IMG/VR virus record: IMGVR_UViG_3300044970_001982
Location: 32,001 to 96,000 of that record
Source of the DNA: a virus
Direction: 5' to 3' (one strand)
DNA: 64,000 bases
The notes beneath the pieces were generated by a model, which made no database searches, had not been told where the DNA came from, and saw nothing but the letters and a program-made list of their open reading frames with translations. The position numbers were made by a program, and so were the translations under genes. Shown in pieces: positions 25,277-41,367 of the stretch (position 1 is its first letter; the number at the start of each line of letters is the position of its first letter).

Positions 25277-26446
25277 TTAATAAACTGAAGTACCCATTAT
25301 AACAGAATTTACCGTTATAGTTCCAGCTGCTAAGTATTTTTTAACACCATCTGGAGTATAATCTGTCAAAGGAATTTCTCTTCCATCAGCTGTCATTGCA
25401 GTTATTACTACACCCCTAATGTAGTCGGAAGCTGTCTTTATTTGACGCTCTAACTCACCAACGGAGAGAGTTTCTCCAACAGATAGAGAATTTAAATACC
25501 TTTTAACGAATAGCACAGATTGATTTCGTATACCAGCTGCCAATGTTTCGTTTACTCCCATAGGAATTCTTATTGTATAAGACAATCCTATCCCAACTTT
25601 TTCGGCTATTCTTACATTAAATTTAACACCAACTGGTTTTACTTGTGAAGTTGCAAGTATGATGTTTTGAGGTAAATTTGATAAGGCTGAAGAATTTTCA
25701 GGAACAACAATAATGTCACAAGAACCAACCCCATAAGATCCTTCTCTAATTTTTACATCCCTAACACCTCTAACAGACAAGGCTGCGAAGCGTACGGACT
25801 CAACTGTTCCAACAGCTTTAGACTTTATAGATGCTACTATTCTTCTTCTATAATTAGAATCTGACTCTGAATTTACATTTGAATAAACTTCTTTTGGATT
25901 ATTACAAAACAGTATTACTCCAGCTGGAGAAAAAAAGCTATGTTTAGTTAGCGAATTAACTGGTGCAACGTAGGCATTGTCAGTGAAATTTGGCTCTACT
26001 CTACCATAAGCTTTTAGATTTCCCCTGGCGATAGTGACGTCTCCAACTAGCTTAAATGAATACTGTTTTGTAACAAAGTTGCTAACATCATTGTAAACAA
26101 GTGTTCCGCTAGGAATTAGTACATCAGAGCTGTGAGCTTTATTTATAAAAAATTCTATATTGAAAGACTGTCTATCTTCTGCGGAATAATCTGTTATAGT
26201 TTTTCTTTGTATCCCATAAAGATCGCCAATAAGGTCTAAATTTTTTCCAGAAGCTGTCAGTAAGTTATTTTGATTAATATTAAATCTAAGAGACTCATAA
26301 AGGTCAGATATTTCAGAAGTAAATGCCTCAGCAAACGCTCTAGCTATCGACCCTGGATATATCGCAGTAATTCCTGCGTCTTTCTGGAGTGAGTTTAGTA
26401 CATTTACTAAAATATCAGACTTATTTTTAATACCGTATACAGTCAT
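25277..26446 (-). CDS. Baseplate J-like wedge protein
   Basis: PGSIARAFAEA, ASGKNLDLIGDLYGIQR, IPSGTLV, ESDSNYRRRI, GTVESVRFAALSVRGV, KPVGVK. Confidence 0.9.
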   Translation of the reverse strand: MTVYGIKNKSDILVNVLNSLQKDAGITAIYPGSIARAFAEAFTSEISDLYESLRFNINQNNLLTASGKNLDLIGDLYGIQRKTITDYSAEDRQSFNIEFFINKAHSSDVLIPSGTLVYNDVSNFVTKQYSFKLVGDVTIARGNLKAYGRVEPNFTDNAYVAPVNSLTKHSFFSPAGVILFCNNPKEVYSNVNSESDSNYRRRIVASIKSKAVGTVESVRFAALSVRGVRDVKIREGSYGVGSCDIIVVPENSSALSNLPQNIILATSQVKPVGVKFNVRIAEKVGIGLSYTIRIPMGVNETLAAGIRNQSVLFVKRYLNSLSVGETLSVGELERQIKTASDYIRGVVITAMTADGREIPLTDYTPDGVKKYLAAGTITVNSVIMGTSVY

Positions 26447-27850: not shown

Positions 27851-30130
27851 TTACGGATTAGTAAACAATTGACCATTCAGCCATTGATCAATGTATGGCC
27901 TAGACCAAACTGTATCTCCAAATGTAGCTGGGTCATCACGATAAACGGCTTTGACCCATTCTTTAAGATCATTTTCTGTTTTTCCTATAGTTTTATAAAC
28001 CTCTACACAATGCACAAACTGTACACCGCTTATCCATCCATAAGGTTGCTTCCCCCTATAGTCTCCCCATGCCCCAAATTGATAACCATTAGAAGGTTGG
28101 GTTCCCAATCTCTGTAGGCCAAACTGAGGAGGCTGTCCAGTTCTAAATGTATATAAAGCCCATGCCTGATTAATCGGTATCCAAAATCTATGATCAACCA
28201 ACTCTCTCATGATCTCTACAGTTGCATTGTAACTTCCTGTATAAAATCTTAGTGTTTCATATTTTTCTGTCATAACTCTATTGTAGTTATCTATGGTTGG
28301 TTTTGTTTCTCCAGGAAAAACAGTGTCCCAGTTTTTAATTGCAATTTGCCAACCTTGAAGAAGTTCTTTACCATTAGAATCTGTTAATTCATATGTTTTT
28401 TTTCCATGAGCTGCTCCAGATGAGGCGCTGGTGCTAACTTCACCTTGTCTATTTTTTCTATAACCACCAACTCCCATGTTTATTTGAAAAATACCTAAAG
28501 ACATAAAGTCTCCACTAAGTGCATTTGGATTGCATGATGTTGGGTGGCCATTACTTTCTCTAACTATAATTCCAGCAAATATAGCAGCTACTTCATCAGA
28601 GAAAGCTGTTGTCCTTAACATATTAAATACATCTAAACGAGTTAGCTCAGCACCCCAGTCACCATAATAATTTTTTCTTATATTCTCTGGAGTTGGATTA
28701 TATGGAACAACGCCTATTCCTGGAATTTCCACATTTATAGTCCCATACGTAGATGTCCCTCCTGATGTTCCTGTACCAGTATTCGTTCCAGCAATTGCCA
28801 TTGCTCCTCCAGGGCCAACATATCTACCAGATCTCATACCGCTAAAACTAAGGTGTATGTGATTTCTATGGTCAGCATCTCCCATAAAGTTAATATACTC
28901 TAGATATGGTTTATTTAACTTTAAAGCAGATGTCATTGGTTCAAGGCCAGAATCAAGAAGTCCATAATCAGAAATTAAATCACTACTAACAACAACCAGA
29001 TCTGGCAATAGATATTGGGGAACCTCAGCCAAAGCTTCAATTAATATTTGAACAGCCTTATCGTAGGTTTCTTTTGGCGGAATAGTAGATAGTTCTATTA
29101 TTTCTCCATTTATTTTTCCAACCCGCTTAATATCTATTGCTCTACCAAAAACATGATCGCTTAAAAATGTCCTGTCTTTTCCTGCTGCAACAGCTTTGTC
29201 ATAATATCTTTGCGGACTTCTTCCAGCATCTAAGCCACCACCTATGTATATATTTTTTTCATGCATAAGTAACAAAAATTCTATTAAGGCTGGGCATATA
29301 TATGCGTTTGCTCCGCCACCAGGTGAGTCTAAAATTACATCACTTGATAAAAATCTTTCTTCACTAGGAATTTTTGCGTCAGGGAAGAATGTATCTTCGC
29401 CATTACCTATTCTTATTGGTCCATTCGCCCATTCATTTGGAATGTCAAATCTAAATCCACCTATTTTAGCGTTGTCTGAAATAACTGACTCATATTTACT
29501 TCTAAGAAGTGTTAATCTTTCTTGAAACCAGGCGTTTTCTTCTGCTGACAATTCTGATATATATGCAACATTTCTTTTTCCAGCGCTTTGCATTTCTGCA
29601 CTTGGCTGACCTGCATTTCCGTTTTTAGAGTTATTTCCACTATCGCCAGTTGCTGCAGATTCTCCAAGTTTTCTTTCAATTTCAATCTGCTGCATATTTT
29701 GTATGGACTGATCTACGAATGAGGCTCCTAGGTTTTTTCCGGCTATAGATTGAGCTATTATTCTATTATAGGCTGCGGCACCAGTTAATTTTATACTATC
29801 TTCACTTTCATATTGTGTTTCAGGATTGTTAACGGGTTGATCAAAAGATTCGCTAGCAACAGATGCTCCACCAGTTATTAGTGTATTAAGTGAAGTAGAC
29901 ACAGACATACTTAAAGCTTTTGTTGCGTATTTTGGATGCCTATTAAAGATATCTCCATTTATCATGGAGCTAACAGTTGAGGTACTTAAGGTTCTACCTA
30001 AAACTGGAGCAGCTTTTGAAGCGCTTGTATTTTTTACTGGAGACTTTCCACCAGGATAATAATCATTAAATACTGTATTTGCAAAAGATACAGAATCAGA
30101 CAGAGCTGCATTATTAATATTAAAACTCAC
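27851..30130 (-). CDS. Tail-associated peptidoglycan hydrolase: M15-like Zn peptidase plus lysozyme-like transglycosylase domain
   Basis: SDHVFGRAIDI (SxHxxGxAxD) and NHIHLSF zinc ligands; IIVRESNG...SLGIFQIN (ES and GxFQ motifs); GTG start with AAGGAG RBS. Confidence 0.8.
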   Translation of the reverse strand: MSFNINNAALSDSVSFANTVFNDYYPGGKSPVKNTSASKAAPVLGRTLSTSTVSSMINGDIFNRHPKYATKALSMSVSTSLNTLITGGASVASESFDQPVNNPETQYESEDSIKLTGAAAYNRIIAQSIAGKNLGASFVDQSIQNMQQIEIERKLGESAATGDSGNNSKNGNAGQPSAEMQSAGKRNVAYISELSAEENAWFQERLTLLRSKYESVISDNAKIGGFRFDIPNEWANGPIRIGNGEDTFFPDAKIPSEERFLSSDVILDSPGGGANAYICPALIEFLLLMHEKNIYIGGGLDAGRSPQRYYDKAVAAGKDRTFLSDHVFGRAIDIKRVGKINGEIIELSTIPPKETYDKAVQILIEALAEVPQYLLPDLVVVSSDLISDYGLLDSGLEPMTSALKLNKPYLEYINFMGDADHRNHIHLSFSGMRSGRYVGPGGAMAIAGTNTGTGTSGGTSTYGTINVEIPGIGVVPYNPTPENIRKNYYGDWGAELTRLDVFNMLRTTAFSDEVAAIFAGIIVRESNGHPTSCNPNALSGDFMSLGIFQINMGVGGYRKNRQGEVSTSASSGAAHGKKTYELTDSNGKELLQGWQIAIKNWDTVFPGETKPTIDNYNRVMTEKYETLRFYTGSYNATVEIMRELVDHRFWIPINQAWALYTFRTGQPPQFGLQRLGTQPSNGYQFGAWGDYRGKQPYGWISGVQFVHCVEVYKTIGKTENDLKEWVKAVYRDDPATFGDTVWSRPYIDQWLNGQLFTNP

Positions 30131-33100
30131 TAGATCACTCTCCTTGGCATAAGGGCTGATTCTTCTGCAGAAATAACAGACTCAGATTCTATCTGCACTT
30201 GCTTAGCGTATACTTGAGCTAAATTATTGGATACTAGTTCCCAGTTTAATGTAACTGGATATCCATCTTCATAATATTCATCCCAGAATATAGTAGGCCA
30301 TTCGCTTGTTTTTTCGTAAGTTGCGTTTAAGATTCTGTATGCAACTAGAGCATTATACAGTTTAACTACGTCATCTTCAGATATTCCATAATTGGTCTGA
30401 GCGTTGTCTCTTAAATATTCGGGAGCAAAGTAAGACAATTTACTATTAATAATTTCATTATATATTGAAAGTTTCTTTACATTCATTGGAGAATCTTCGT
30501 AAATTCCCTTAAAGAACTCTAAACATATAAGATTATTAATTGAGTCTACACTTCCTATATTTTTTTCTTTATTCTTTATAAAGCAGGATGTAACAAATTG
30601 TTCGGCCTGTTGAACAACTGATTCGGGCTGGTAATACCAAATTGTGCCCAAAACTCTTTCTGATGCGGTGACGTCCTTGGCATAATTTGCCACTGTATTT
30701 TCATTTGCACCGGGTTGAAATTGTTGCTCAAATATAACATCATCAGTTGCTGAGTTACTTATTTTTGTTCTAAGAACAAATATTCTATTCTTAAGCTTTT
30801 CTTCTGTATAGAGTTTTGCCCTTCCACCAGGAGTACTTATTGAAGTAAGCTGCGTTTGATTATCTTGATTACCTGGTTCATTTGGAATGCCGCCAACTCT
30901 AATTGTATTAGTTTCTCCAGTATTTATTCCATCAAATCTAACCTTAAATGTAGATCCAGAAATTATATCTTGAACCCAGAAAGTGTCACCGTCAATAAAT
31001 TCGGTAACTTTTACGATCACCCTGAATAGTGATGGTTGGAGATCTGCTTTTTCTGGACCAAGACCGCTTAATTGCAAAACTCTTGCGTGTGTTATTGCAT
31101 TTTCATAGTCTATATGTCTAACTAAATCTTTTATTTCTACTTCTTGCCAGCCAAGACTCTTTAATAAATCGTCACTTCTAATGAATACATTTCCTTCTGG
31201 AGTTTTTACTTTAGTTCTTGCTCCCAACAAACCTGGAAGAAGTGCCTTGGAATGATATCTACCTACAACCATGCCTTGATTATATGACAAGCCGGCATCC
31301 ATTGGCTGGCCATTCTTATTTAGGTATTGTATATAACAACCATGCTGATCAAGTACGTTGTCCCTAATCCATTTCCAGCCCTTCCAAGCTAGCTGTCCAA
31401 CTATAGGAAGTGCAATTGCTGCGGCTGCTCCGCCTGCTGCAGCTGCTATTAGGCCAGAACCAGCTATTAATCCACCAGCAACTGCCTTAAATCCAGTATC
31501 TGAACCACTCTTATTTGCGTCAATTAACTGTTGAGCTTTTTGTGGTAATGTTAATGCAGTTTGATTAGCCATAATATCTTTAACTAAAGATGTAGATCCA
31601 TGCGTATATTCAATTCCACCCATCATTTGTGGCATTAGGGCATCTGATAGGGCGTCTACTGATATATCACCGCCAACATTTATTCCAGTATTTGACGCCA
31701 TAATATTGTCTATATAGAATCTAGTATCATTTCTAATATTTTGTAGCCCCAGCCAGGATCTTAACCATGAAGATAGGAACCAGCGCGATGGGTCATTAAC
31801 AGTAACTAAAGCGTTGGGTGTAATTGATGTTATGTAGCCCATTTCCGGAGTAAAGTGATGAACAACCTGTTCAACTTCAAATAGTCCATACATTCTTTCA
31901 TAGACGTCTGAGAGATATACTAGGTCATGCGGTCTAATATCTGCATTTCCTATGATGATTAGTTCGCCACCATAAATATCTTTAATAGATTCTTTTAGGT
32001 GTGCTAGTGCTATTCTTCTAGCAGACAATTCATCTGGTGTACCTTGAGCATTTTTTGCCACTCCTCTAAATGTTTCAAGGGGATGCATTAATGGGTGCAG
32101 TACTCCAAGGAATCCAGAACCAATCATATTGTCATAATATATTCCTGTTTCAACAGTTATTTCAGTTTGACGTTCTGGTGGCGCACCTTTATCAAGAGCG
32201 ACTGTAACCGGATGCTTTCCATCTGATACCGCAGTAACTACAGTTGCTACGTTATTTAGATTCTCTTGTATTTGATTTGAAATAATATGCGAGAAAGAAC
32301 TAACGTAATGTAGTCGCTGAAATGGCTGTCGTACTTCTAGTACTGGTTCGCCATATTCTCTTGTGAATGGATTATCTACTGCTCTTAATAAAGTGCCAGG
32401 TCTACCCAAGGAATAATAAATTGAATCATTTAAAACCTTATTTAAGATATGTGCTTGTTTTCCAAAGTTTCCAACTTCAGATATAGCGTAACCCATCTGC
32501 ATCATGTTTAATTTAAACATTCCGAGAAGTCCACTAAGACCATCCCCAATTGCAGTAAATATTGGTCCTATATTTCTTTGATAGAAGTCAGATACGTCTT
32601 CACCTATTCCACCTATCCAAGTTGAAGAATTGCTACCCTCTGAAGCGGTAGAAACTAGTAGCTGTAGGAATTTTTCGCTACCTTTTGCATACTGCGAATA
32701 TGGACTTATGAATGCTTCGAAAACCTTATCTACTGGCTTAAATGACCAAGAGCCTTCTGAGCCCTTACCGTTTCCAAAAGGACCTTTCTTTCTGTCTGGC
32801 TTGAGAACTAACCAAGCTCTACCATAAGCTGTGCTCCAAAGTTTTTGCCTAAACAATCCAACCATTAATAAGAATAACTGCTTAGGTGTTTTTATTTGAT
32901 CCGATAACTTTATTGCCTCACTCTGATTATCGGTATTCTCAATAGAATACTGCAGTAGGTTATTTATTATTTGGTTTTCAAAAAAGTTAACTCTAATATT
33001 ATCTAAAGATTTAGATATAACATTATTAAAGTATTCAATGACACCAGCATCTCCGCTTATTCCCTGACTTGTTGCATCAATGTAATTTGTTCTTATAAAT

Positions 33101-36100
33101 TCTATTGTTTGCTTCCTGGCTTCTAATTGAGAAGTTCCTTGTTGCGTACCTTGCCTATTAGAGTCTGTAAAGAAATCTGCGCCTAACAAGATTACTAGTT
33201 CATCAACACCAGTATTTTCTATATTTCCTACATTTTCTAATCCAGGTACATCTACAGTATTATCTGAAAAATTAGAAAATATTTTTGAATTAGTTTTATC
33301 TAAAATTCTCTTGAATTCTTCAGGGAACTCTGTAGTGTCGTCAGGATCTAAACCATATGTTTTTGCAAATATATTTTTTACACTTTCGTATGTGTGGTAA
33401 CCAAATCTAAATTGATCCCATATATCATTAGCCTGTGATAGAGTTCTGCCGTTTCCGGCTATAACAGATACGTTTGGATCAAAATTTTCATCATAGAATG
33501 ATCGCGCCTCAACACTAACAGAATCCATCATGGAATAAACTGGAGCAAATCCAACTCTTCCAGAACCAGTATCGTCGTCTCCAGTTGTATATAGTTCGCC
33601 ATCTAATCTGTCATACAAAGTACTTCTACTTAAAACATCTGTATCATTAGATATTTTTGTAATATCTAATATGGCTTCAAAATATCCCAGGTCATCACCG
33701 CTCTTAAGAACATTTCCACCATATGTATAATCAATATCGGAAATACTTGCATTAGATGCTGACCACTCTGCAAATATTCCACTTGATTCTGCTAATTGTC
33801 TTTCTAAACTATCAGCTGAACCTGTTAGCTGTTTTCTTTGAGCAGTTAGAGTTTCTCCATTTGTTGCCGTGTAGTTTCCAAATCCAATAATATACTCTTC
33901 ATTAACAGCTTTATCATCGCCAACTAAAAATCTCTTTACTGGCGCTAATTCAGAAGATACTACTCCAACTGGAACATCATCCGGAACAAACGCAAAGAAG
34001 CAATCTACTAGCCTTGGTTGAATTGCAATTCCACTAGACTCTTCTAATGTATATAGTGGATTTCTAGAATCGCCGCCAGAATGTTTAAAATTTATAGAAA
34101 CGTCTTCTGATTCAGTTGATCCGATACTAGCCCAATTTGGTAAATTATTTTTTAATTCATCAGGAACTTTATCTACTAAACTAGAGACAAGTGAGCCTAA
34201 GTACCAGGCGGCATCGGGAGAGACCACGGCAGCAACGTCTTCATCTGAATCTTCACCCCACATAAAGTATGCTGGTGCGCATACAACTGCCCTTTGAGTT
34301 AATGGGCTAAATACTAAAACTTTTCTATTTTTATAGTCTTCCGCAGTACCATAGAGGTTTACAAAACCATACTGTTCCTTAAACTTTTCTAGAGATTCTC
34401 CTTGTATTAATTTATCAGAAGAACCTGGTTTATATGGCCATTTCATAGCAATATAAAACTGCTCTTCCAATAGACCCTTAGGAGAACCCCATTCTTGATA
34501 CGATATCTGCTCATTTAATTCATATTCAAAAGAATAATCATCTGCATTTTCAGCAGCGTCTATCGTTGTTACTGTTAACGCTCCAATATCATTTTCTCCA
34601 CCACTAGCAAATATTGATACTGATGGTAGTGGCATTCTTACTATGTTTATTTCTCCAAATAAACTTTGTTCACCAAGATTTAATTGATCTGTTAAACTAG
34701 CTAGACCTAAAGGTCTATCTAATTCATAGGTAATTTCAGAAGATGGTATAATCGTTATGGAGTTTTCTTTTATAAAATTAATTTCCTCTTGCATCAATGC
34801 AAGAATGCCCTTTGTAAACTCCAGCCCTCCCGATACGCCTGTTTTTACAGTATCTCCATCTTCTACATATCTATCTATTAAATCATCGGTAGCTATTTCA
34901 ACTGAGCCTACCTTAAGAGAAACTGGGAAACCTTGTGTATCTGCACGAAGATCTATATATGTTCCTTCTAATAATCCACCATCTCGAATCTCTGTTGAGT
35001 ACTTATTGAGTATTACATTTTCATTAACAGTATAAAATGGGTATCTAAATCTTATTGGAAGGTTGTCTATTTGAGCATGACCCTGAGCATTGTCGTTTCC
35101 TCTGTCTGCAAATGTTTTAGTTGGATCTCCTACGGGTAAGTGAAATCCCATTCTAACTTTTCCAACATTTACTGGTAATTTACAAACTACGTTATAAACT
35201 CCATTCTCATTTCTTTCCGAATAAGAAGATGCCAAATTAGAATTAAAGTTAATCAATCTACCATTAACAGATGCAGTTGGGGCATATATTCCTCTGGAAT
35301 TAACCTGATCTTGCACCAAATCAGATATAACATCTGAAAGTTCAGTTGATCTCTTAAAGGCCTCATAATCTGCTAAAGAGTTGGTTTGTGAACTTACTTG
35401 ATTAATAATATTTTCTATATCATTATTTGGCTGAACTATCTTTGGATATCCAGGAAGATTTAGCTGAGCCGCTTTTTCGTCACTTGGAAAACCCGTTGTT
35501 ACTGGAACTACACCAGAAGTATATAGCCAATGTGGTTTTCCGTAGAAAATTGTTGATCTATCTTCAAATGGTCTAACTGCAACTATGTAGTTTGGAAGTA
35601 GACGTGCACAGGTTTGGAATAAATCCCAAACAGTTCTCATGTATGTTTGAGCCCTAAAGGATACCTCATCAAATCCCTGCAAATCATCGTCAGCGTTGGG
35701 CGATATAATTCCCATAGTTCTAAATAAGTTGTTTCCACCACGCCCCCTTAGAAGACCAAATAGTCCTGCACCAGCTACTGCGCCAGCTACTGGATTTAGT
35801 GCTGCAAGGCCTATTGTTGCAGCACCTTTAAGGACACCTGCGACCAATCCAGCTCTACCTTCAGCGGAAACTAACTTATTGTCTTCTACTAAGTTTTCTA
35901 TTGTTTGAGTAGATGCGGTTGAACCAAGTTCTGCTTCTACTATTAAGCGGTTCCAAGATCTATCTGTAGCGGATTCAATATATCTTTGGCCAGCAAGTCT
36001 AAGACTATCAGTTGAATCCTGTGAAAATGAAGAAGCTGTAGACCAACCATCATCAAGGTCTCCTCCAAGGAATTGAGCAAAGCCCGTTCCATTTCCTGGA

Positions 36101-39100
36101 TAAATATTTCTCTTAAATAATTCTAGGTCTACATCAGAGCAATAGTTAGAGACTAGTTGACCCATACTAGTCATTAAGCTACCATTGCCGAATAGTCCAC
36201 TAACGGGATCTCTACTGAAAACATTAGAAATTCTAAATGCTGCGGAGTTAGCTGCTCCTCCAATATTTAGTTCAGAAAGATTATTATAAACTCCGGCAAC
36301 TGTTTGTCTAATTCCATCTGCACGAGCTCTTTCTATATCATTAAGTGGCTCATACAACATTGTGCCGAAGTGTCTAATGCCGAATCTATTTTCAGAAAAT
36401 ACGGTTCCGTTAGTTGCTCTTGCATAGGCTTCCTTAAATCTACTGGCACCCATGCTAAGAAGTCTAACCATAAGATCTCGTGGCTCCGATAGATACATTC
36501 CAGTATCTACTCCACCATCTATTTTTCCAGTATCTCCCTTTTTATTAGTTGAGTTAACTACAGCGCCTAGCTCAATTGCATCTGATTGAGCAGTGATTGT
36601 TACAATCTCTCCCTGCTCAACATTTGTTATCACTCCATTGAAAACGGTTTGCAAAGAATTTGGATTTGCTCCATATCCACATCTTAAGTGAACTCTAACT
36701 CCTGGCTTGAGTCTTATATTGTTGATATCAACAACATAGTTATTTCTCATTCCAGAAATAATATTTCTAGCGACATTTAATGTTCTATCAAGTATTGCAC
36801 TTATGCCATCGGTTAGATTCAAAGGATCATTGCTGAATTCATCATTATTTGCATTAAATATTTCTGTGGATGGCCGAGTTGTTAACTTAGAATACATATT
36901 TGACATTCTTAAAATAAGAGTGTCACCCAAAAGATCTTCAGAACTTACAACAGAAAAATCAACAATAGATTGTAGTCCGTAGAAATTATCAAATAATTTA
37001 ACACCTGCAAACATTCCACCTTCATCTATTAACCACAGCATGTAAGTTGGAAAGGCTCTAAGCATTCTTCCGGAGATGTCGCGATACTGAATATCATTTA
37101 ACATTTTCTCCATATGGCCGTTAAAGTCACCGCTATATGCTTGCTGATATTGATTCAGTGAACTAACTCCAGCTACTCCTGTTAGAGAGTTTGTGCATCC
37201 CCTATCTGGTGTTTGTGTATCTTCTACGAAATTAGATTGTAACTTTATTTTTGTTCCATTAGAACTATTCTCATCATTTTCTATAGTTACATTGGATCCA
37301 TCTATTGTTAGATAAAATCTTCCATTTTCTTTATTGATATATCCAAAATGAGTTCCAAGTGCAGTCTGCATAAAAGCTGGGATTTCATTTGGATTCTGTT
37401 CTTCTGGATCCATTCCGGGAATTATTGTTATTACTTTATGAAACTCTACTTCATCAGGATCAAAGCTAACTTGGGTTTCATTTTCTAAATGAGAATTAGC
37501 TAAAATATATTTTATTAGATCTTCTGTAGATGTATTTGTTACGCCAACGTTTCCCACTAAATATGGAGCACCGTTTATGTCTTCAAATATTTGCAAATCT
37601 TCACTTGAAGAAGCTGATAAAAAGATAAAATCAGTCAGCAGTGCTTGTTTCCTTACTGATGACTGCCCTTCTGTATTTGCAGAAACAACATCCTGAAATA
37701 TGCTTACAAAATTGTGGACACTAATTCCAGTACTCTGAACATAGTCAATCATTTCGTTTATTAACTGCTCATTAGTAAGTGCCCTTTGCTCTCGGGCATC
37801 TTGGTTATTAGCGTTTGTATAGGAATATCTTGTAATAAAATCTAATATTGTATTTCTAACTGATTGTATTTTTCTCTCTAAGTTATCAGATGTCCCCAAT
37901 GCCCAGTCATCTGAATTATCAAATTCAAACTTTTCAGTTAGATCTAATTGTATTTTTGTATTGTTAATAATATCAGAATCAAACATTGAGAAACTTCTAA
38001 AATAGAAGTCTGGATCTAGATTACCTACAACGCCCCCGTCCTTGTCTTTTATGGACAAAGGAAGATCTGGATACGCATTGAAAGATCCCCACATCTGCTT
38101 AATTCTTAAGAATGGATTTCTTTTTGTTCCAAAATGTTCTATTAATTTTGTTTGTTGGTCTGATGATATCTTCTCTCTTTTTTGCTGGAATATATCAAAG
38201 TCAACAAAACTTAACTGAACAGAATAAACATGTGGATAGTTGGGTATTGTATCTACTCTATAGTTAAGAGGTAATACATACTTAACTCCAGCTAAAGCTG
38301 ATATGATATTTTTAATTCCTAGGAAACCTATAACACCGGTAGAGTGCTCTAATCTAGCTAAACCATTTGCATGATCGAAAATATTCTTTATTTTAATTAA
38401 TTCTTTTTCACCAAAAACAGTTAAAGAAATATTTATATATGTATCTTTGCCACCTATAAATTGATAAGTTGGTTCGTCCTGCATTTGAACTTGCAGCTTT
38501 GCCAAATTGTTACCCATAGTAACGCTTACACCATTAACAATGGCCTCTTTAGGGTTTAGGTCAACTCTAGTCATAGGAACTTCCCATTCGTTAAAATGGT
38601 AGTCACCTTCTCTTAATCGAACTGCTTCCATTAAGTTCTTTACGAATCCATCCTTAAAGAATCTTTCATATAGATTTACCTGGAAAGCGTCAGTTATTTG
38701 TTGACGAATTTTATCTTGATCTACTTCAGTAATACCAGTGCTCTTTTGTTGACGAAGAACTTCTTGATTAACCAATTCATCTACTATTGATCCAGAGGCA
38801 GACGACTCATTGTAAATAGAGTACTTAATATAATTAAGACTTGCGTTATCTCCTTCTGGATTTTTAACAATCTCATTATTTCTATAATAAGATTCAGAAC
38901 CAATTGTTGGATATTGATTAAAATGAAGAGATGGAATTGCATTTTCGCCAGGATAATTTCTTAACCAACTTGCTTGTTCTGAATCTATTCTAGTTATATT
39001 TTCTGAAATAAATGATTGTACTTTATACGCATATACTTTTTCTCTAAAGTCGTCAGTACTGGTGCCTGCTGTCATAATGTCAATTGCTTGACGAACAAAC

Positions 39101-41367
39101 TTTTTAGTGGATAATGGATAAGTTGATTCTAACGAAAGAGAAGATATGTCATTAATATCTTTTATTAATGGTGTAAGACTTGTACGATCAATTCCAAAAT
39201 TTTCTAGAATTCTATCCCAAAGACCAGAACTAGTTTCGTTTAATATTTTTTCTTGCTCACTTCTAAAAGAAGTGCTGTCTGGTAGGAATATTTTTGTTTG
39301 TGTCTCTGCTGGAACAAACAAAGTTAGATTGCTTCCATCTTTCCATTGAGTAACTATATTTGTAGACAGTACATCATTATCGTAAGTGTTAACATATTCT
39401 AAGTTTTCTGCCAAGATGCCATCTTCATCAGTTGTATCTACTGGCATTGCGCCGTATGGACTAACCTCATACGTATCCGCTTGATTTGTAGCTTTATCAT
39501 CTGATGTCTTTAATAAAAACGCCTCACTAACATATCTATGCATTTCTCCTGCGGCTTTGCCCATATATTGACGATATTTACCCCAGTGAATAGCCTGATT
39601 AAAATCTTTAATCATTGGCAAGAATGGCTTGTGATTATAACTGTATAATTCTAAGTCAACTACTAATGCAAATGGATAACTTGGTATTGTTGATATAGAC
39701 ATAGCGGATAGTGCAACAGCTGTAATTCCGTGCACAGAGTTTATATACTGATTCTTGATTGGTAGAATTGGAGAATACTTAAACGCTGCAATTAATCCTC
39801 TGAGTGAGGATAAGAACTTATCTATTTTATCTTCTGAGTCTCCACCATTTTTGAAATCTATAGTAAAGTTTTCATTTAAATCTAAGCTAGAAGCGTCGTC
39901 TATTGAGAGACCCCATATTTCTTCATAGTTAGGGAAAAATAATCTTAACGATACCGTGGTTTCTTTGTATCCAGCATTAAACTTTGGAGTGTTTCTTTGA
40001 CGTATTGCACCACCTGTAAGGGATCCAGTTTTAAATGCAGAATTAACACTAACAGAAACTGGTGGAACATAAAAGTTTGCAGCTCCTAGTCTTAAATGAA
40101 AGATATCTGGTTTTCTAGGTGGTATATTTGCCCTGAATGGAAAATCTTGTAAAGCTTTTTTAATTCTTTCTGAAGTTGTATAAAACTTTTCTGTGCCAGC
40201 TAAAGTAAATATTGGCTTACCAGATTGACTAACGCCAAATGCTTTTTCTAGCGAAAGAATAGCGTCTGCCATATTATTAAGAGTATCCTCTTGGCCTCCA
40301 CCCTTTCCGTTATTTGAATAGTCGCCAACAACAGCTATAGCATCAAAAACAAACGTCAGCAATGATGGGAAATAGTGGTTTATTATAGAGAATGAAATAG
40401 GATCTTGCTGAAGACTATAAACAACTTGACTTAGTTGTTGTAACCATGGAGTATCTACCGATGGATCTATAAAATCATTTGCAGATTTTTTAACTGTTGC
40501 TATATTTTGCAATCTTTTCTTAGCGAACTCTCCTATTTCATAGGCATAGGATGCCAGGTAGATTAAACCCGTAGATTCTAACCTGGAATATATACTTCTA
40601 GCTAAAGTTTCTTCTTCTGAAGTATTTAAAAGATTTTTAATATCTATGCCAAAAACCCTCGAAGTTGCTCTTACATTTTTTTCTGTAATTTCATCTTTTC
40701 TTGTCTTTTGGAAAAATTCTTCCATTGGGTCTACTTGAGTTCCGTCGTTGGCGCCAAAATATATTAAACTAAAGAACCTCTGAACTTGGTAAATTGCTTC
40801 ATCTTCTTCATAATTTTTTTCGTCTTCTACTGTTTCTTCGGAAACCAATCTTTCTTCAAATGCAAGAAGCTGCTCTAGCATTTCATCATTAATGCCAACA
40901 TCTATAGATGTTTCATACCATATTGTTATTCTTTCCAATATTTTAGATGCTAAAAATTTAGTTACCTTTTCATCCGCATCCGTATATGCATAGTTTGTTA
41001 CAAAGTGATTTATTATATCTGCTTCAGTAGAAAGACCTGGATTTTGCAAAACCCCAAATCTAGCGCTTATAACACTAAGATATTCATCTAATACTAAAGA
41101 CGTATTTATTGCTGTTCCAGATATAAAAATCGATACAGATTTTTTGTATAAGGCTAAAGAATATTTATCATTAAAGTCTAAATTAATTAACTGTGAACCG
41201 GTTATATCTGGAGTAGATAAATCTACGTTATCGCCAAACTGAAGGAACGCAGATAGGCTAGATGTAGAAACGGACTGATCTGATAGATAGGCACTTAGGG
41301 TAGTATAGTCTAAGTCGCTTTCAGCTATATATGTAAGAGCTTGTCGTGCTATTGAATTTATTGCCAT
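30130..41367 (-). CDS. Giant baseplate hub fusion: tube-like modules, gp27/gp44-like hub, RlpA-like barrel, hydrophobic helices, C-terminal thermonuclease domain
   Basis: GVRVHLRCGYG...VFNGVITNV and GELIIIGNADIRPHDLVYL...FEVEQVVHHF hub motifs; YIAMKWPY...VSPDAAWYLG; FIDGDT...VRFDGINTGE...LNWELVSNNLAQVY SNase motifs. Confidence 0.75.
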   Translation of the reverse strand: MAINSIARQALTYIAESDLDYTTLSAYLSDQSVSTSSLSAFLQFGDNVDLSTPDITGSQLINLDFNDKYSLALYKKSVSIFISGTAINTSLVLDEYLSVISARFGVLQNPGLSTEADIINHFVTNYAYTDADEKVTKFLASKILERITIWYETSIDVGINDEMLEQLLAFEERLVSEETVEDEKNYEEDEAIYQVQRFFSLIYFGANDGTQVDPMEEFFQKTRKDEITEKNVRATSRVFGIDIKNLLNTSEEETLARSIYSRLESTGLIYLASYAYEIGEFAKKRLQNIATVKKSANDFIDPSVDTPWLQQLSQVVYSLQQDPISFSIINHYFPSLLTFVFDAIAVVGDYSNNGKGGGQEDTLNNMADAILSLEKAFGVSQSGKPIFTLAGTEKFYTTSERIKKALQDFPFRANIPPRKPDIFHLRLGAANFYVPPVSVSVNSAFKTGSLTGGAIRQRNTPKFNAGYKETTVSLRLFFPNYEEIWGLSIDDASSLDLNENFTIDFKNGGDSEDKIDKFLSSLRGLIAAFKYSPILPIKNQYINSVHGITAVALSAMSISTIPSYPFALVVDLELYSYNHKPFLPMIKDFNQAIHWGKYRQYMGKAAGEMHRYVSEAFLLKTSDDKATNQADTYEVSPYGAMPVDTTDEDGILAENLEYVNTYDNDVLSTNIVTQWKDGSNLTLFVPAETQTKIFLPDSTSFRSEQEKILNETSSGLWDRILENFGIDRTSLTPLIKDINDISSLSLESTYPLSTKKFVRQAIDIMTAGTSTDDFREKVYAYKVQSFISENITRIDSEQASWLRNYPGENAIPSLHFNQYPTIGSESYYRNNEIVKNPEGDNASLNYIKYSIYNESSASGSIVDELVNQEVLRQQKSTGITEVDQDKIRQQITDAFQVNLYERFFKDGFVKNLMEAVRLREGDYHFNEWEVPMTRVDLNPKEAIVNGVSVTMGNNLAKLQVQMQDEPTYQFIGGKDTYINISLTVFGEKELIKIKNIFDHANGLARLEHSTGVIGFLGIKNIISALAGVKYVLPLNYRVDTIPNYPHVYSVQLSFVDFDIFQQKREKISSDQQTKLIEHFGTKRNPFLRIKQMWGSFNAYPDLPLSIKDKDGGVVGNLDPDFYFRSFSMFDSDIINNTKIQLDLTEKFEFDNSDDWALGTSDNLERKIQSVRNTILDFITRYSYTNANNQDAREQRALTNEQLINEMIDYVQSTGISVHNFVSIFQDVVSANTEGQSSVRKQALLTDFIFLSASSSEDLQIFEDINGAPYLVGNVGVTNTSTEDLIKYILANSHLENETQVSFDPDEVEFHKVITIIPGMDPEEQNPNEIPAFMQTALGTHFGYINKENGRFYLTIDGSNVTIENDENSSNGTKIKLQSNFVEDTQTPDRGCTNSLTGVAGVSSLNQYQQAYSGDFNGHMEKMLNDIQYRDISGRMLRAFPTYMLWLIDEGGMFAGVKLFDNFYGLQSIVDFSVVSSEDLLGDTLILRMSNMYSKLTTRPSTEIFNANNDEFSNDPLNLTDGISAILDRTLNVARNIISGMRNNYVVDINNIRLKPGVRVHLRCGYGANPNSLQTVFNGVITNVEQGEIVTITAQSDAIELGAVVNSTNKKGDTGKIDGGVDTGMYLSEPRDLMVRLLSMGASRFKEAYARATNGTVFSENRFGIRHFGTMLYEPLNDIERARADGIRQTVAGVYNNLSELNIGGAANSAAFRISNVFSRDPVSGLFGNGSLMTSMGQLVSNYCSDVDLELFKRNIYPGNGTGFAQFLGGDLDDGWSTASSFSQDSTDSLRLAGQRYIESATDRSWNRLIVEAELGSTASTQTIENLVEDNKLVSAEGRAGLVAGVLKGAATIGLAALNPVAGAVAGAGLFGLLRGRGGNNLFRTMGIISPNADDDLQGFDEVSFRAQTYMRTVWDLFQTCARLLPNYIVAVRPFEDRSTIFYGKPHWLYTSGVVPVTTGFPSDEKAAQLNLPGYPKIVQPNNDIENIINQVSSQTNSLADYEAFKRSTELSDVISDLVQDQVNSRGIYAPTASVNGRLINFNSNLASSYSERNENGVYNVVCKLPVNVGKVRMGFHLPVGDPTKTFADRGNDNAQGHAQIDNLPIRFRYPFYTVNENVILNKYSTEIRDGGLLEGTYIDLRADTQGFPVSLKVGSVEIATDDLIDRYVEDGDTVKTGVSGGLEFTKGILALMQEEINFIKENSITIIPSSEITYELDRPLGLASLTDQLNLGEQSLFGEINIVRMPLPSVSIFASGGENDIGALTVTTIDAAENADDYSFEYELNEQISYQEWGSPKGLLEEQFYIAMKWPYKPGSSDKLIQGESLEKFKEQYGFVNLYGTAEDYKNRKVLVFSPLTQRAVVCAPAYFMWGEDSDEDVAAVVSPDAAWYLGSLVSSLVDKVPDELKNNLPNWASIGSTESEDVSINFKHSGGDSRNPLYTLEESSGIAIQPRLVDCFFAFVPDDVPVGVVSSELAPVKRFLVGDDKAVNEEYIIGFGNYTATNGETLTAQRKQLTGSADSLERQLAESSGIFAEWSASNASISDIDYTYGGNVLKSGDDLGYFEAILDITKISNDTDVLSRSTLYDRLDGELYTTGDDDTGSGRVGFAPVYSMMDSVSVEARSFYDENFDPNVSVIAGNGRTLSQANDIWDQFRFGYHTYESVKNIFAKTYGLDPDDTTEFPEEFKRILDKTNSKIFSNFSDNTVDVPGLENVGNIENTGVDELVILLGADFFTDSNRQGTQQGTSQLEARKQTIEFIRTNYIDATSQGISGDAGVIEYFNNVISKSLDNIRVNFFENQIINNLLQYSIENTDNQSEAIKLSDQIKTPKQLFLLMVGLFRQKLWSTAYGRAWLVLKPDRKKGPFGNGKGSEGSWSFKPVDKVFEAFISPYSQYAKGSEKFLQLLVSTASEGSNSSTWIGGIGEDVSDFYQRNIGPIFTAIGDGLSGLLGMFKLNMMQMGYAISEVGNFGKQAHILNKVLNDSIYYSLGRPGTLLRAVDNPFTREYGEPVLEVRQPFQRLHYVSSFSHIISNQIQENLNNVATVVTAVSDGKHPVTVALDKGAPPERQTEITVETGIYYDNMIGSGFLGVLHPLMHPLETFRGVAKNAQGTPDELSARRIALAHLKESIKDIYGGELIIIGNADIRPHDLVYLSDVYERMYGLFEVEQVVHHFTPEMGYITSITPNALVTVNDPSRWFLSSWLRSWLGLQNIRNDTRFYIDNIMASNTGINVGGDISVDALSDALMPQMMGGIEYTHGSTSLVKDIMANQTALTLPQKAQQLIDANKSGSDTGFKAVAGGLIAGSGLIAAAAGGAAAAIALPIVGQLAWKGWKWIRDNVLDQHGCYIQYLNKNGQPMDAGLSYNQGMVVGRYHSKALLPGLLGARTKVKTPEGNVFIRSDDLLKSLGWQEVEIKDLVRHIDYENAITHARVLQLSGLGPEKADLQPSLFRVIVKVTEFIDGDTFWVQDIISGSTFKVRFDGINTGETNTIRVGGIPNEPGNQDNQTQLTSISTPGGRAKLYTEEKLKNRIFVLRTKISNSATDDVIFEQQFQPGANENTVANYAKDVTASERVLGTIWYYQPESVVQQAEQFVTSCFIKNKEKNIGSVDSINNLICLEFFKGIYEDSPMNVKKLSIYNEIINSKLSYFAPEYLRDNAQTNYGISEDDVVKLYNALVAYRILNATYEKTSEWPTIFWDEYYEDGYPVTLNWELVSNNLAQVYAKQVQIESESVISAEESALMPRRVI

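What the first reader, a model, noticed from the sequence alone, without database searches (positions are those of the whole stretch)
30190..31490. Thermonuclease domain fused to the end of the baseplate hub, behind a hydrophobic helix
Seen: VKVTEFIDGDTFWV...KVRFDGINTGET...GGRAKLYTEEKL...ERVLGTIW, then an insertion of over 100 aa, then TLNWELVSNNLAQVY. Upstream is an apolar stretch AVAGGLIAGSGLIAAAAGGAAAAIALPIVG (~31395-31490). Known: staphylococcal-nuclease-family domains use DGDT, R-x-x-G-I-D-x-P-E, a second Arg and N-x-x-L-V-x-x-G-x-A. Here DGDT, both Arg and Glu appear retained, while the GID Asp is Asn. Inference: an architecture analogous to an evolved VgrG, in which the hub carries a nuclease that is either delivered across the membrane or clears extracellular DNA.
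Basis: partly seen in the sequence, partly recalled or inferred. Interest (0 to 1): 0.7.

Follow-up and report, generated by a model that had tools for sequence, protein, structure and literature searches.

The report
Split nuclease domain on phage tail hub
The last ~300 residues of a 3,745-residue tail-tip (baseplate hub) protein of an uncultured ~200-kb phage fold as a staphylococcal-type nuclease, split by a 110-residue helical insert and sitting behind a membrane-seeking hydrophobic stretch. Nucleases on this hub family were first noted in 2007, and their job is still untested.

Summary
Window 30193-31032 (minus strand), the C-terminus of ORF 30130-41367, folds in AlphaFold2 (pLDDT 85-97) as a staphylococcal nuclease. 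An unbiased search of 48,161 PDB chains returns only SNase-fold proteins at the top (Z 6-10.9), and SNase itself scores Z 11-12.

D21, R35, T41, E43 and R87 equivalents are kept; D40 is Asn. A ~110-aa helical insert splits the fold. A 30-aa Gly/Ala uncharged stretch and a highly conserved ~110-aa domain of unknown fold precede it.

More than 250 giant metagenomic homologues share the module. Of 180 compared, 136 keep the catalytic set, and one clade of 23 lost D40 and E43 together.

It is not new in kind. Hardies et al. 2007 noted an unexplained SNase domain on the BtI1 homologue of the phage 0305phi8-36 hub. I also found Pfam SNase domains in the hubs of Bacillus phage WH1 (N-terminal) and Acinetobacter phage ME3 (internal). 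This scan has flagged hub nucleases in at least 14 other genomes.

New here are the C-terminal placement behind a hydrophobic segment and the split. The layout parallels T5 pb2 (hydrophobic stretch, then muralytic domain).

Best reading: a nuclease ejected at the tail tip and anchored in the envelope. Activity and substrate are untested.

The parts
30130..41367 (-). 3,745-aa giant baseplate-hub protein (P0001). The finding is its C-terminal 456 residues.
   Evidence: Single ORF. Collinear with PHROG 20474, E = 3.7e-121. tblastn to 0305phi8-36 gp147 'baseplate hub protein', E = 4e-14, and to the ME3 hub, E = 3e-9. Lies upstream of a Baseplate_J gene at 25277-26446.
31792..32337 (-). Last recognisable hub element (residues 3011-3192), shared with hubs of cultured jumbo phages
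   Evidence: tblastn matches to 0305phi8-36 ORF147, WH1 gp094, KLEB27-3 gp035, Moorella MTATph1 CDS0032 and ME3_37. PHROG 52 'tail protein' and PHROG 8809 also match.
31396..31485 (-). Gly/Ala-rich uncharged hydrophobic segment (residues 3295-3324), membrane-inserting or fusion-peptide-like
   Evidence: Highest hydropathy in the protein (KD19 = 2.04) and a 30-residue uncharged run. Conserved by composition, not sequence: median run 34-39 residues, A 26%, G 23%.
31063..31395 (-). Trp/Lys interfacial motif (LAWKGWKW) plus a highly conserved ~110-aa juxtamembrane domain of unknown fold (residues 3325-3435)
   Evidence: 14 invariant and 32 nearly invariant columns in 58 sequences. It is the best-conserved part even in the distant 2,200-3,300-aa relatives. 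AF2 confidence is low: pLDDT 35-58 in the full model and 53.6 alone. No PDB profile hit. The whole 456-aa fragment and the five distant fragments of the family that contain this domain gave no Pfam match in this stretch, and the feature search gave no usable hit.
30628..31032 (-). SNase fold, N-terminal part (frag 157-291): beta1-beta3 with DGDT, R188, N193-T194, E196; helix 1; beta4; beta5 with R282
   Evidence: AF2 strands and helix in SNase order. VIA alignment of model 157-435 to SNase 6-116. HMM alignments to PDB thermonuclease, NCBIfam EcnA and the phage's own SNase.
30301..30627 (-). ~110-aa all-helical insertion between beta5 and the DG turn before helix 2 (frag 292-400)
   Evidence: Helices H293-398 at pLDDT 91-97. 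Best structural matches reach only Z 5.0 or less. Insert length is bimodal: about 26 aa in the 2,200-3,300-aa relatives and about 111 aa in those over 3,300 aa.
30193..30300 (-). SNase fold, C-terminal part (frag 401-436): WDEYY.DG.P.TLNWELV..NLA.VY, equivalent to the SNase D95-G96 turn and helix 2
   Evidence: The most conserved columns of the SNase part: P415 invariant; W406, D407, G413, N419, W420, E421 at 90% or more. Aligned to SNase VNEALVRQGLAKV.
30133..30192 (-). Low-confidence C-terminal tail (frag 437-456). SNase helix 3 is not recovered.
   Evidence: pLDDT 45-58. Most VIA alignments stop at SNase residue 116.

Best explanation
The C-terminus of the giant baseplate-hub protein is a three-part envelope-attack module: (1) a 30-aa Gly/Ala hydrophobic segment, (2) a highly conserved ~110-aa juxtamembrane domain, and (3) a staphylococcal-nuclease-fold domain split by a helical insert.

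Shown:
- The fold.
- The retention of the residues that in SNase bind Ca2+ and the scissile phosphate (D21, T41, R35, R87) and activate water (E43).
- The hub context.
- The conservation of the whole module in a large family of uncultured ~200-kb myoviruses.

Inferred mechanism:
- The module occupies the place that relatives fill with peptidoglycan hydrolases.
- When the tail fires, the module is expelled from the hub and the hydrophobic segment inserts into a host membrane, as proposed for the 46-residue hydrophobic stretch of T5 pb2.
- The nuclease is left tethered, or cleaved off, on the extracytoplasmic side, where millimolar Ca2+ is available.
- There it cuts nucleic acid at the entry site: cell-surface or matrix DNA, or DNA passing through the periplasm.

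The fold is near certain, catalytic competence moderately likely, and compartment and substrate are guesses.
For: Fold:
- AF2 pLDDT 85-97 over frag 160-435.
- Foldseek top 50 hits are SNase or SND1 SN-domain structures.
- VIA Z 11-12 against SNase.
- Ranks 1-15 of 48,161 chains are all SNase-fold proteins.

Sequence:
- NCBIfam Ca-activated nuclease EcnA, E = 8.7e-7.
- PDB thermonuclease is the top profile hit, with three collinear motifs.
- hhalign to the phage's own PF00565 nuclease, probability 88%, E = 3e-6.
- Family member P0145 passes the Pfam SNase gathering score, 22.2 against 21 bits.

Catalysis:
- D172, R188, [D/N]193, E196 and R282 are kept in 136 of 180 relatives, down to about 35% identity.
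- One monophyletic clade (23 sequences, support 1.0) lost D40 and E43 together, as expected if these residues work as one site.
- The phage's own bona fide SNase (50 bits to PF00565) also has Asn at the D40 position, GVNTPE.

Placement:
- 0305phi8-36 gp147 carries NlpC/P60 plus M23 after the same hub element, and ME3 carries SNase plus M23.
- The Moorella MTATph1 hub runs hub element, Gly/Ala hydrophobic run, VanY peptidase.
- T5 pb2 has a 46-residue hydrophobic stretch, a cleavage site, then a muralytic C-terminal domain released into the periplasm (PMC10038345).
- SNase chemistry needs Ca2+, R35, R87 and E43 (PMC8436206).
Against: - No enzyme assay exists for any hub-borne SNase.
- Pfam SNase does not match the window's own protein even at E = 1 or in the genome scan at E = 10. 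The NCBIfam hit disappears when the whole 3,745-aa protein is scanned.
- The D40 position is the least conserved of the set (N 102, D 35, I 21, plus S, G, A, L, Q, K), so metal binding may differ from SNase.
- A clade of 23 keeps the domain without E43 and D40, so the domain also has a non-catalytic value.
- The strongest conservation in the module lies in the juxtamembrane domain and the helix-2 region, not in catalytic residues.
- Flanking charges give no clear topology (K+R 1.7 upstream, 2.2 downstream). The window's run of 30 residues is short for a two-helix hairpin.
- The host, and so its envelope type, is not established.
Confidence: 0.5

Rival explanations
1. The domain is a catalytically silent SNase/OB scaffold. 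It would be kept as a structural plug, an oligomerisation or assembly element, or a nucleic-acid or protein binder at the hub, much as eukaryotic extended-Tudor domains use a split, dead SNase fold as a scaffold.
For: - D40 is Asn and this position drifts widely.
- 23 relatives keep the domain after losing E43 and D40.
- The Pfam model fails on the window protein.
- The best-conserved columns are structural: W406, D407, G413, P415, N419, W420, E421.
- Split, inactive SNase folds (eTudor, Tudor-SN) are among the top structural matches, Z 6-10.9.
Against: - D21, R35, E43 and R87 equivalents are retained together in 136 of 180 sequences across deep divergence, including the distant short-insert clade with canonical RVRLTGVDAPEL and DTYGRTLG motifs.
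- Inactive scaffolds such as eTudor do not keep these residues (my own knowledge).
- The loss is confined mainly to one clade and is coordinated.
Confidence: 0.27
2. The nuclease is carried through the inner membrane into the cytoplasm at the head of the ejected protein and DNA train. There it attacks host nucleic acid for takeover or anti-defence, in the manner of an evolved-VgrG nuclease effector.
For: - The hub C-terminus should face the tail lumen, so it would be among the first material to leave.
- The neighbouring genes encode 2,220-aa and 1,549-aa proteins. Earlier notes of this scan read these as ejected proteins with hydrophobic helices (unchecked).
- There are slightly more K+R residues after the hydrophobic run than before it.
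Against: - SNase-type chemistry needs Ca2+ at concentrations not found in the cytoplasm (established knowledge of the family; PMC8436206 for the Ca2+ mechanism).
- Only a few tethered copies per virion would be delivered.
- A non-specific nuclease at the entry pore would endanger the incoming genome.
- Relatives place peptidoglycan hydrolases, which act outside the cytoplasm, in the same position.
Confidence: 0.15
3. The motif resemblance is chance and the region is not an SNase domain.
For: - No Pfam hit.
- No phmmer hit in PDB.
- The deeper profile A2 lost the thermonuclease hits.
Against: - Structure search with Z 11-12 against SNase, and SNase-fold proteins alone in ranks 1-15 of 48,161 chains.
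- NCBIfam E = 8.7e-7.
- hhalign E = 3e-6.
- A family member exceeds the Pfam threshold.
Confidence: 0.02

Closest known systems
Staphylococcus aureus nuclease A (SNase, thermonuclease; Pfam PF00565)
   Same: - OB-barrel-plus-helices fold: Z 11-12, 22-24% identity over 103-116 aligned residues.
- DGDT, R35, T41, E43, R87 and the N-x-x-L-V-x-x-G-L-A helix all have equivalents.
   Different: - D40 is Asn.
- A ~110-aa helical domain is inserted between beta5 and helix 2.
- The omega loop and the beta4-R87 loop are longer, 27 and 34 aa; my recollection is that the SNase equivalents are about 10 aa each.
- Helix 3 is not recovered.
- It is a domain of a 3,745-aa virion protein, not a secreted enzyme.
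- It falls below the Pfam threshold.
Giant hub proteins of the 0305phi8-36 lineage that carry SNase domains: the BtI1 homologue of gp147 (Hardies et al. 2007, PMC2147016), Bacillus phage vB_BceM_WH1 gp094, Acinetobacter phage ME3 gp37
   Same: - The same hub family: tblastn E = 2e-16 (WH1) to 3e-9 (ME3) to the last hub element.
- An SNase domain is fused into the hub. Its purpose was called 'not obvious' in 2007 and is still untested.
   Different: - There the SNase is N-terminal (BtI1; WH1 residues 175-263, 25.9 bits) or internal next to an M23 peptidase (ME3 residues 1126-1241, E = 4.7e-14).
- Those copies are canonical enough for Pfam.
- Those copies have no long uncharged Gly/Ala run anywhere in the protein.
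- Here the domain is C-terminal, split, and sits behind a hydrophobic segment and an extra conserved domain.
Phage T5 tape-measure protein pb2 (Linares et al. 2023, PMC10038345)
   Same: The order of parts at the C-terminus of a tail-lumen protein. A hydrophobic stretch of about 46 residues (here 30; family median 34-39) is proposed to insert into the host membrane. It is followed by a C-terminal enzyme domain released into the periplasm.
   Different: - pb2 is a tape measure of a siphovirus, not a hub.
- Its enzyme is a muralytic metallopeptidase.
- It is cleaved after R1127. Cleavage here is unknown.
- No sequence homology was detected.
Tail-associated lysin domains on hub proteins: 0305phi8-36 gp147 (NlpC/P60 plus M23), the Moorella phage MTATph1 hub (VanY), and the T4 gp5 lysozyme position
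   Same: - An enzyme domain is appended after the last hub element.
- MTATph1 even has a Gly/Ala uncharged run (residues 1889-1912) between the hub element and the enzyme.
   Different: Those enzymes cut peptidoglycan, an obvious barrier. A nuclease has no obvious substrate in the envelope.
Evolved VgrG and PAAR/Rhs nuclease effectors of type VI secretion
   Different: - VgrG has a gp5-like OB domain and beta-helix between hub and effector.
- Its effectors are variable, paired with immunity genes and act in the target cytoplasm. To my knowledge its nuclease effectors are of other folds.
- Here the module is a conserved family feature with no immunity gene evident.
Extended Tudor domains and Tudor-SN SN5 (eukaryotes)
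   Same: An SNase fold that tolerates a whole domain inserted into it. These are among the top structural matches, Z 6-10.9.
   Different: - The inserted domain is a Tudor barrel at another position.
- The catalytic residues are lost.
- The biology is unrelated.

Membership tests
SNase / thermonuclease (PF00565) | Five-stranded OB barrel with helices in SNase topology | tested here: met
   AF2 model with pLDDT 85-97. VIA Z 11-12, rmsd 2.3-3.6 A, 103-116 of 129-137 residues aligned. SNase-fold chains fill ranks 1-15 of 48,161.
SNase / thermonuclease (PF00565) | Catalytic Arg35, Glu43 and Arg87 equivalents | tested here: met
   R188, E196 and R282 by HMM alignment to PDB SNase. Family frequencies: R 172/180, E 148/180, R 147 plus K 25 of 180.
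SNase / thermonuclease (PF00565) | Ca2+ ligands Asp21, Asp40 and Thr41 | tested here: inconclusive
   D172 and T194 are present. The D40 equivalent is N193 (family: N 102, D 35, I 21, others). The phage's own PF00565 nuclease also has Asn here. Metal binding was not modelled.
SNase / thermonuclease (PF00565) | Score above the curated Pfam gathering threshold (21 bits) | tested here: not met
   No hit for the window protein at E up to 1, nor in the genome scan at E up to 10. Met only by relatives: P0145 at 22.2 bits, and 4 of 63 members match at E up to 0.1. NCBIfam EcnA gives E = 8.7e-7 but 29 bits, far below its equivalog cut-off of 180.
SNase / thermonuclease (PF00565) | Ca2+-dependent cleavage of DNA and RNA to 3'-phosphates | not testable with these tools
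   Needs an enzyme assay.
Baseplate hub (T4 gp27 / P2 gpD family, 0305phi8-36 gp147 subfamily) | Sequence homology to an established hub protein | tested here: met
   tblastn of residues 2901-3300: 0305phi8-36 ORF147 E = 4e-14, ME3 hub E = 3e-9, Moorella E = 7e-18. PHROG 20474 E = 3.7e-121, collinear. The gp27 homology of gp147 itself rests on PMC2147016.
Baseplate hub (T4 gp27 / P2 gpD family, 0305phi8-36 gp147 subfamily) | Gene position between tape-measure-like genes and the gpV/W/J-like baseplate genes of a myovirus | tested here: met
   A weak tail-sheath match (PF04984, E = 0.00095, 19.5 bits, below its 31.4-bit cut-off) lies at 59196-60815, giant ORFs lie upstream, and Baseplate_J lies at 25277-26446. 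The order is the same as in 0305phi8-36 and ME3.
Baseplate hub (T4 gp27 / P2 gpD family, 0305phi8-36 gp147 subfamily) | gp27-like fold of the hub domains | not tested
PHROG 196 'baseplate hub' gives only E = 0.0089.
Evolved VgrG | gp27-like and gp5-like modules plus a beta-helix spike in one chain, followed by a C-terminal effector | tested here: inconclusive
   No gp5, Phage_base_V or spike family was detected between the hub element and the nuclease. No structure was predicted for that stretch. I treat VgrG as an analogy only.

The most novel reading that the evidence does not exclude
The hub nuclease is a structural-protein-borne effector that stays anchored at the entry site on the extracytoplasmic face. 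It destroys DNA that later tries to cross the envelope, whether from competing phages or as transforming or conjugative DNA. Alternatively, it clears the surface or matrix DNA that shields cells. Either way it would be a virion-delivered nuclease function with no described counterpart in tailed phages, recurring at three different positions of one hub family.
Probability: 0.1. Interest if true: 0.8.

Novelty: new variant of a known kind. Interest (0 to 1): 0.42.

Why it matters
Tail-tip enzymes of phages are almost always peptidoglycan or polysaccharide hydrolases. A nuclease at the tip has no obvious substrate on the way into a cell.

Even so, this hub family has kept one at the N-terminus, in the middle or at the C-terminus in Bacillus, Acinetobacter and uncultured freshwater phages. 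Most lineages keep the catalytic residues. The puzzle raised in 2007 has never been tested.

The version here adds two clues. It sits directly behind a membrane-inserting segment, like the muralytic domain of T5 pb2. One clade has lost the active site while keeping the domain. Together these make a clean comparative experiment possible.

If active, such domains could explain how some jumbo phages cope with DNA-rich matrices or with competitors. They would also add a nuclease class to the virion-associated enzyme repertoire.

Tried and rejected
Searches that gave nothing:
- Pfam on the whole protein, on the 456-aa fragment and on seven overlapping pieces found no SNase and no other domain.
- tblastn of the fragment against 50,697 phage records gave no match.
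- phmmer against PDB gave none.
- The deeper profile A2 against PDB lost the thermonuclease hits seen with A1 and returned only noise.
- phmmer against 1.84 billion representatives found only giant hub proteins or fragments of them. It found no stand-alone nucleases.

Juxtamembrane domain (frag 36-146):
- The feature search found nothing usable.
- The profile against PDB gave noise.
- AF2 alone gave pLDDT 53.6, too low to search.
- I considered an RlpA/3D-like double-psi barrel and a Hint- or Hedgehog-like 'HGC' autoprocessing site. No search supports either, so both are dropped as unsupported.

Helical insert: the best structural matches reach Z 5.0 or less (histone-like, death-domain, ACP-like), which is below significance for helical bundles.

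Other attempts:
- The search for related loci with the distant fragment P0145 found nothing.
I could not check whether the short hits (P0121, P0136 and others) are contig-end fragments or truly separate genes.
- Charge asymmetry around the hydrophobic run gave no usable topology prediction.
- A literature search for 'EcnA' gave nothing relevant.
Full report
**What is there**

The window is the tail and baseplate region of an uncultured phage. The record is 109,100 bases and is estimated to be 52% complete, so the genome is about 200 kb. All large ORFs lie on the minus strand. A weak tail-sheath-like match lies at 59196-60815 (E = 0.00095, below the Pfam cut-off) and a Baseplate_J protein lies at 25277-26446.

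The finding is the C-terminus of a single 3,745-aa ORF, 30130-41367. I number its last 456 residues as 'frag' (frag 1 = residue 3290).

**Is it a hub?**

- Residues 2901-3300 match the proteins annotated as baseplate hub in Bacillus phage 0305phi8-36 (ORF147, E = 4e-14) and Acinetobacter phage ME3 (E = 3e-9). They also match the corresponding giant proteins of Bacillus phages WH1, Edson and KLEB27-3 and of Moorella phage MTATph1.
- The whole protein is collinear with PHROG 20474, E = 3.7e-121.
- In those phages the gene sits between the tape measure and gpV- and gpJ-like baseplate genes, as it does here.
- The gp27 and gpD homology of gp147 was argued by Hardies et al. 2007 (PMC2147016).
- I did not fold the hub part myself.

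**Is it an SNase domain?**

Sequence tools alone are borderline:
- Pfam gives nothing.
- PHROG 452 'endonuclease' gives E = 0.06.
- A 23-sequence family profile puts PDB thermonuclease on top at E = 0.03. The three SNase motifs align collinearly: DGDT, then R-x4-[D/N]-T-x-E, then DKYGR-x-L, then N-x-x-L-V-x-x-x-L-A.
- A deeper profile lost this hit.
- NCBIfam gives a significant hit on the window's own fragment: calcium-activated nuclease EcnA, E = 8.7e-7, frag 163-241. The hit vanishes when the whole 3,745-aa protein is scanned.
- hhalign against the phage's own stand-alone PF00565 nuclease gives probability 88%, E = 3e-6.

Structure settles it:
- An AlphaFold2 model built from a 63-sequence alignment has pLDDT 85-97 over frag 160-435.
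- Foldseek's top 50 PDB hits are SNase or SND1 SN-domain structures.
- VIA-align gives Z 11-12, rmsd 2.3-3.6 A over 103-116 residues, with model 157-435 aligned to SNase 6-116.
- A search that does not depend on Foldseek, over 48,161 representative chains, returns only SNase-fold proteins in ranks 1-15: Tudor-SN, SND1, SNase and extended Tudor domains, Z 6-10.9. Everything else scores Z 5.0 or less.

**Family and evolution**

- More than 250 giant proteins (2,059-6,554 aa searched) carry the module.
- An exhaustive phmmer search of 1.84 billion representatives finds 106 clusters, all giant hub proteins or fragments of them.
- A BFVD entry of the same family is named 'Baseplate hub protein [uncultured Caudovirales phage]'.

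The relatives fall into two classes:
- Proteins over 3,300 aa have an insert of about 111 aa between beta5 and the DG turn.
- Proteins of 2,200-3,300 aa have only about 26 aa there. They show near-canonical motifs (RVRLTGVDAPEL, DTYGRTLGVIYHN).
- One fragment of the second class passes the Pfam SNase gathering score, 22.2 against 21 bits.

So the large helical insert is a later, clade-specific acquisition in an originally ordinary SNase domain. The insert is confidently helical (pLDDT 91-97) but has no significant structural relative.

**Active site**

In 180 aligned C-termini the equivalents of the SNase catalytic residues are distributed as follows:

| SNase residue | Frag position | Family counts (of 180) |
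|---|---|---|
| D19 | D170 | D 172 |
| D21 | D172 | D 171 |
| R35 | R188 | R 172, K 6 |
| E43 | E196 | E 148 |
| R87 | R282 | R 147, K 25 |
| D40 | N193 | N 102, D 35, I 21, rest scattered |

- 136 of 180 sequences keep D, R/K, D/N, E and R/K together.
- One clade of 23 (support 1.0) has lost D40 (to I or F) and E43 (to S and others), and carries T22E and R87K as well.
- Coordinated loss in one lineage, against joint retention elsewhere, is what one expects if these residues form a working site that most lineages still use.
- It also shows that the domain is kept for some non-catalytic reason.
- Asn at the D40 position also occurs in the phage's own bona fide SNase, GVNTPE, which scores 50 bits to PF00565.
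- From memory, and unverified here: in S. aureus nuclease, D40 substitutions cost far less activity than substitutions of D21, R35, E43 or R87. That would fit the pattern.
- The roles of Ca2+, R35, R87 and E43 are summarised in PMC8436206.

**What precedes the nuclease**

The first element is a Gly/Ala-rich uncharged run:
- Here it is 30 residues, with KD19 = 2.04, the maximum in the protein.
- Its sequence is not conserved but its composition is. The median run is 34-39 residues, most are 30-50, and the composition is A 26% and G 23%.
- A conserved Trp/Lys motif (LAWKGWKW) follows it.

The second element is a ~110-aa domain that is the most conserved part of the module:
- It has 14 invariant and 32 nearly invariant columns.
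- AlphaFold cannot fold it (pLDDT 35-58 in the full model and 53.6 alone).
- It has no PDB profile match, and the Pfam scans of the fragment and of family members show no match in this stretch.
- It may fold only in the trimer or on a membrane.

**Comparison with the known**

A hub-borne SNase is not new:
- Hardies et al. [quoted passage not shown] They added that 'it is not obvious why', and suggested intragenomic transfer from stand-alone phage SNase genes.
- I found two further cases in cultured phages by Pfam. WH1 gp094 has an N-terminal SNase (residues 175-263, 25.9 bits).
- ME3 gp37 has an internal SNase (1126-1241, E = 4.7e-14) directly followed by Peptidase_M23.
- The stand-alone SNase about 500 bases before this window fits the transfer idea.

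Other hubs of the lineage carry peptidoglycan hydrolases in the same position:
- gp147 has NlpC/P60 plus M23.
- Moorella MTATph1 has VanY. Its hub has the same order as here: hub element, Gly/Ala uncharged run (1889-1912), enzyme.

The best mechanistic parallel is T5 pb2 (PMC10038345):
- It has a 46-residue hydrophobic stretch 'compatible with two transmembrane helices' that is proposed to insert into the outer membrane.
- A cleavage site follows.
- A muralytic C-terminal domain is then 'released in the periplasm'.

**Mechanism I commit to**

The module is stored in or under the hub. It is expelled on firing and anchored by the hydrophobic segment. It then presents a Ca2+-type nuclease on the extracytoplasmic side.
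- Shown: the fold, the residues, the context and the conservation.
- Inferred: the expulsion, the compartment, the activity and the substrate.

My odds are about 0.5 for the overall picture, 0.27 for a silent scaffold and 0.15 for a cytoplasmic effector.

**Earlier notes of this scan**

After reaching the above I looked them up. Hub-borne SNase domains have been flagged in at least 14 other genomes. These include C-terminal ones on 3,718-aa and 4,071-aa hubs. Follow-up agents reached the same 2007 precedent. This lowers the novelty of the kind. What is specific here is:
- the hydrophobic-segment and T5 pb2 / MTATph1 parallel;
- the bimodal insert length;
- the coordinated active-site loss in one clade;
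- the unexplained juxtamembrane domain.

**Limits**

- No model coordinates were available to me.
- The host is unknown. One relative is filed under a Flavobacterium sp. assembly.

Noticed in passing
outside the window: G000:C1:31103-31501 (= L096:1468-1866, minus strand), about 500 bases before window position 1: The same phage encodes a stand-alone 132-aa canonical SNase (PF00565 50.3 bits; NCBIfam NucI E = 3.5e-19). It also has Asn at the D40 position (GVNTPE). This fits the 2007 idea that hub nucleases arise by intragenomic transfer from stand-alone genes.
   Followed up: partly
window 31063-31395 (-), residues 3325-3435: A ~110-aa domain right after the hydrophobic segment is the most conserved part of the C-terminal module (motifs LAWKGWKW, DQHGCY.QYLNKNGQPMDAGLSYNQG). 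It has no family, no PDB relative and no confident AlphaFold model.
   Followed up: yes
window 35749-35853 (-), residues 1839-1873: A second Gly/Ala-rich hydrophobic segment (KD19 up to 1.72) lies in the middle of the same hub protein, between the hub halves.
   Followed up: no
relatives P0074, P0076, P0083, P0085, P0093 and others (23 sequences): A monophyletic clade of hub proteins keeps the SNase fold but has replaced the D40, E43, T22 and R87 equivalents together (pattern D-D-E-R-I-A-S...K). It is a natural inactive control.
   Followed up: partly
L100:7886-8923 (Moorella phage MTATph1 hub, residues 1880-2225): This cultured-phage hub has the same order: hub element, Gly/Ala uncharged run, C-terminal enzyme (VanY-like). 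After the run it has a weak motif echo of the juxtamembrane domain (L.KNG....AG.....G.V.G; hhalign E = 0.0096, probability 4%).
   Followed up: partly
L067:1501-2784: One IMG/VR relative has an in-frame stop inside the C-terminal module. This could be a pseudogene, a sequencing error or recoding.
   Followed up: no
window 27851-30130 (-): The 759-aa gene immediately downstream overlaps the hub stop by one base. It sits where relatives have gpV-like spike or lysin genes, yet it has no match in Pfam, PHROGs or PDB and only a chance-level NCBIfam match (E = 0.099).
   Followed up: partly
window 30133-31500 versus 30130-41367: The NCBIfam EcnA hit (E = 8.7e-7) appears only when the 456-aa fragment is scanned alone and vanishes for the full 3,745-aa protein. 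This shows that domains of giant proteins can be missed in whole-protein scans.
   Followed up: yes
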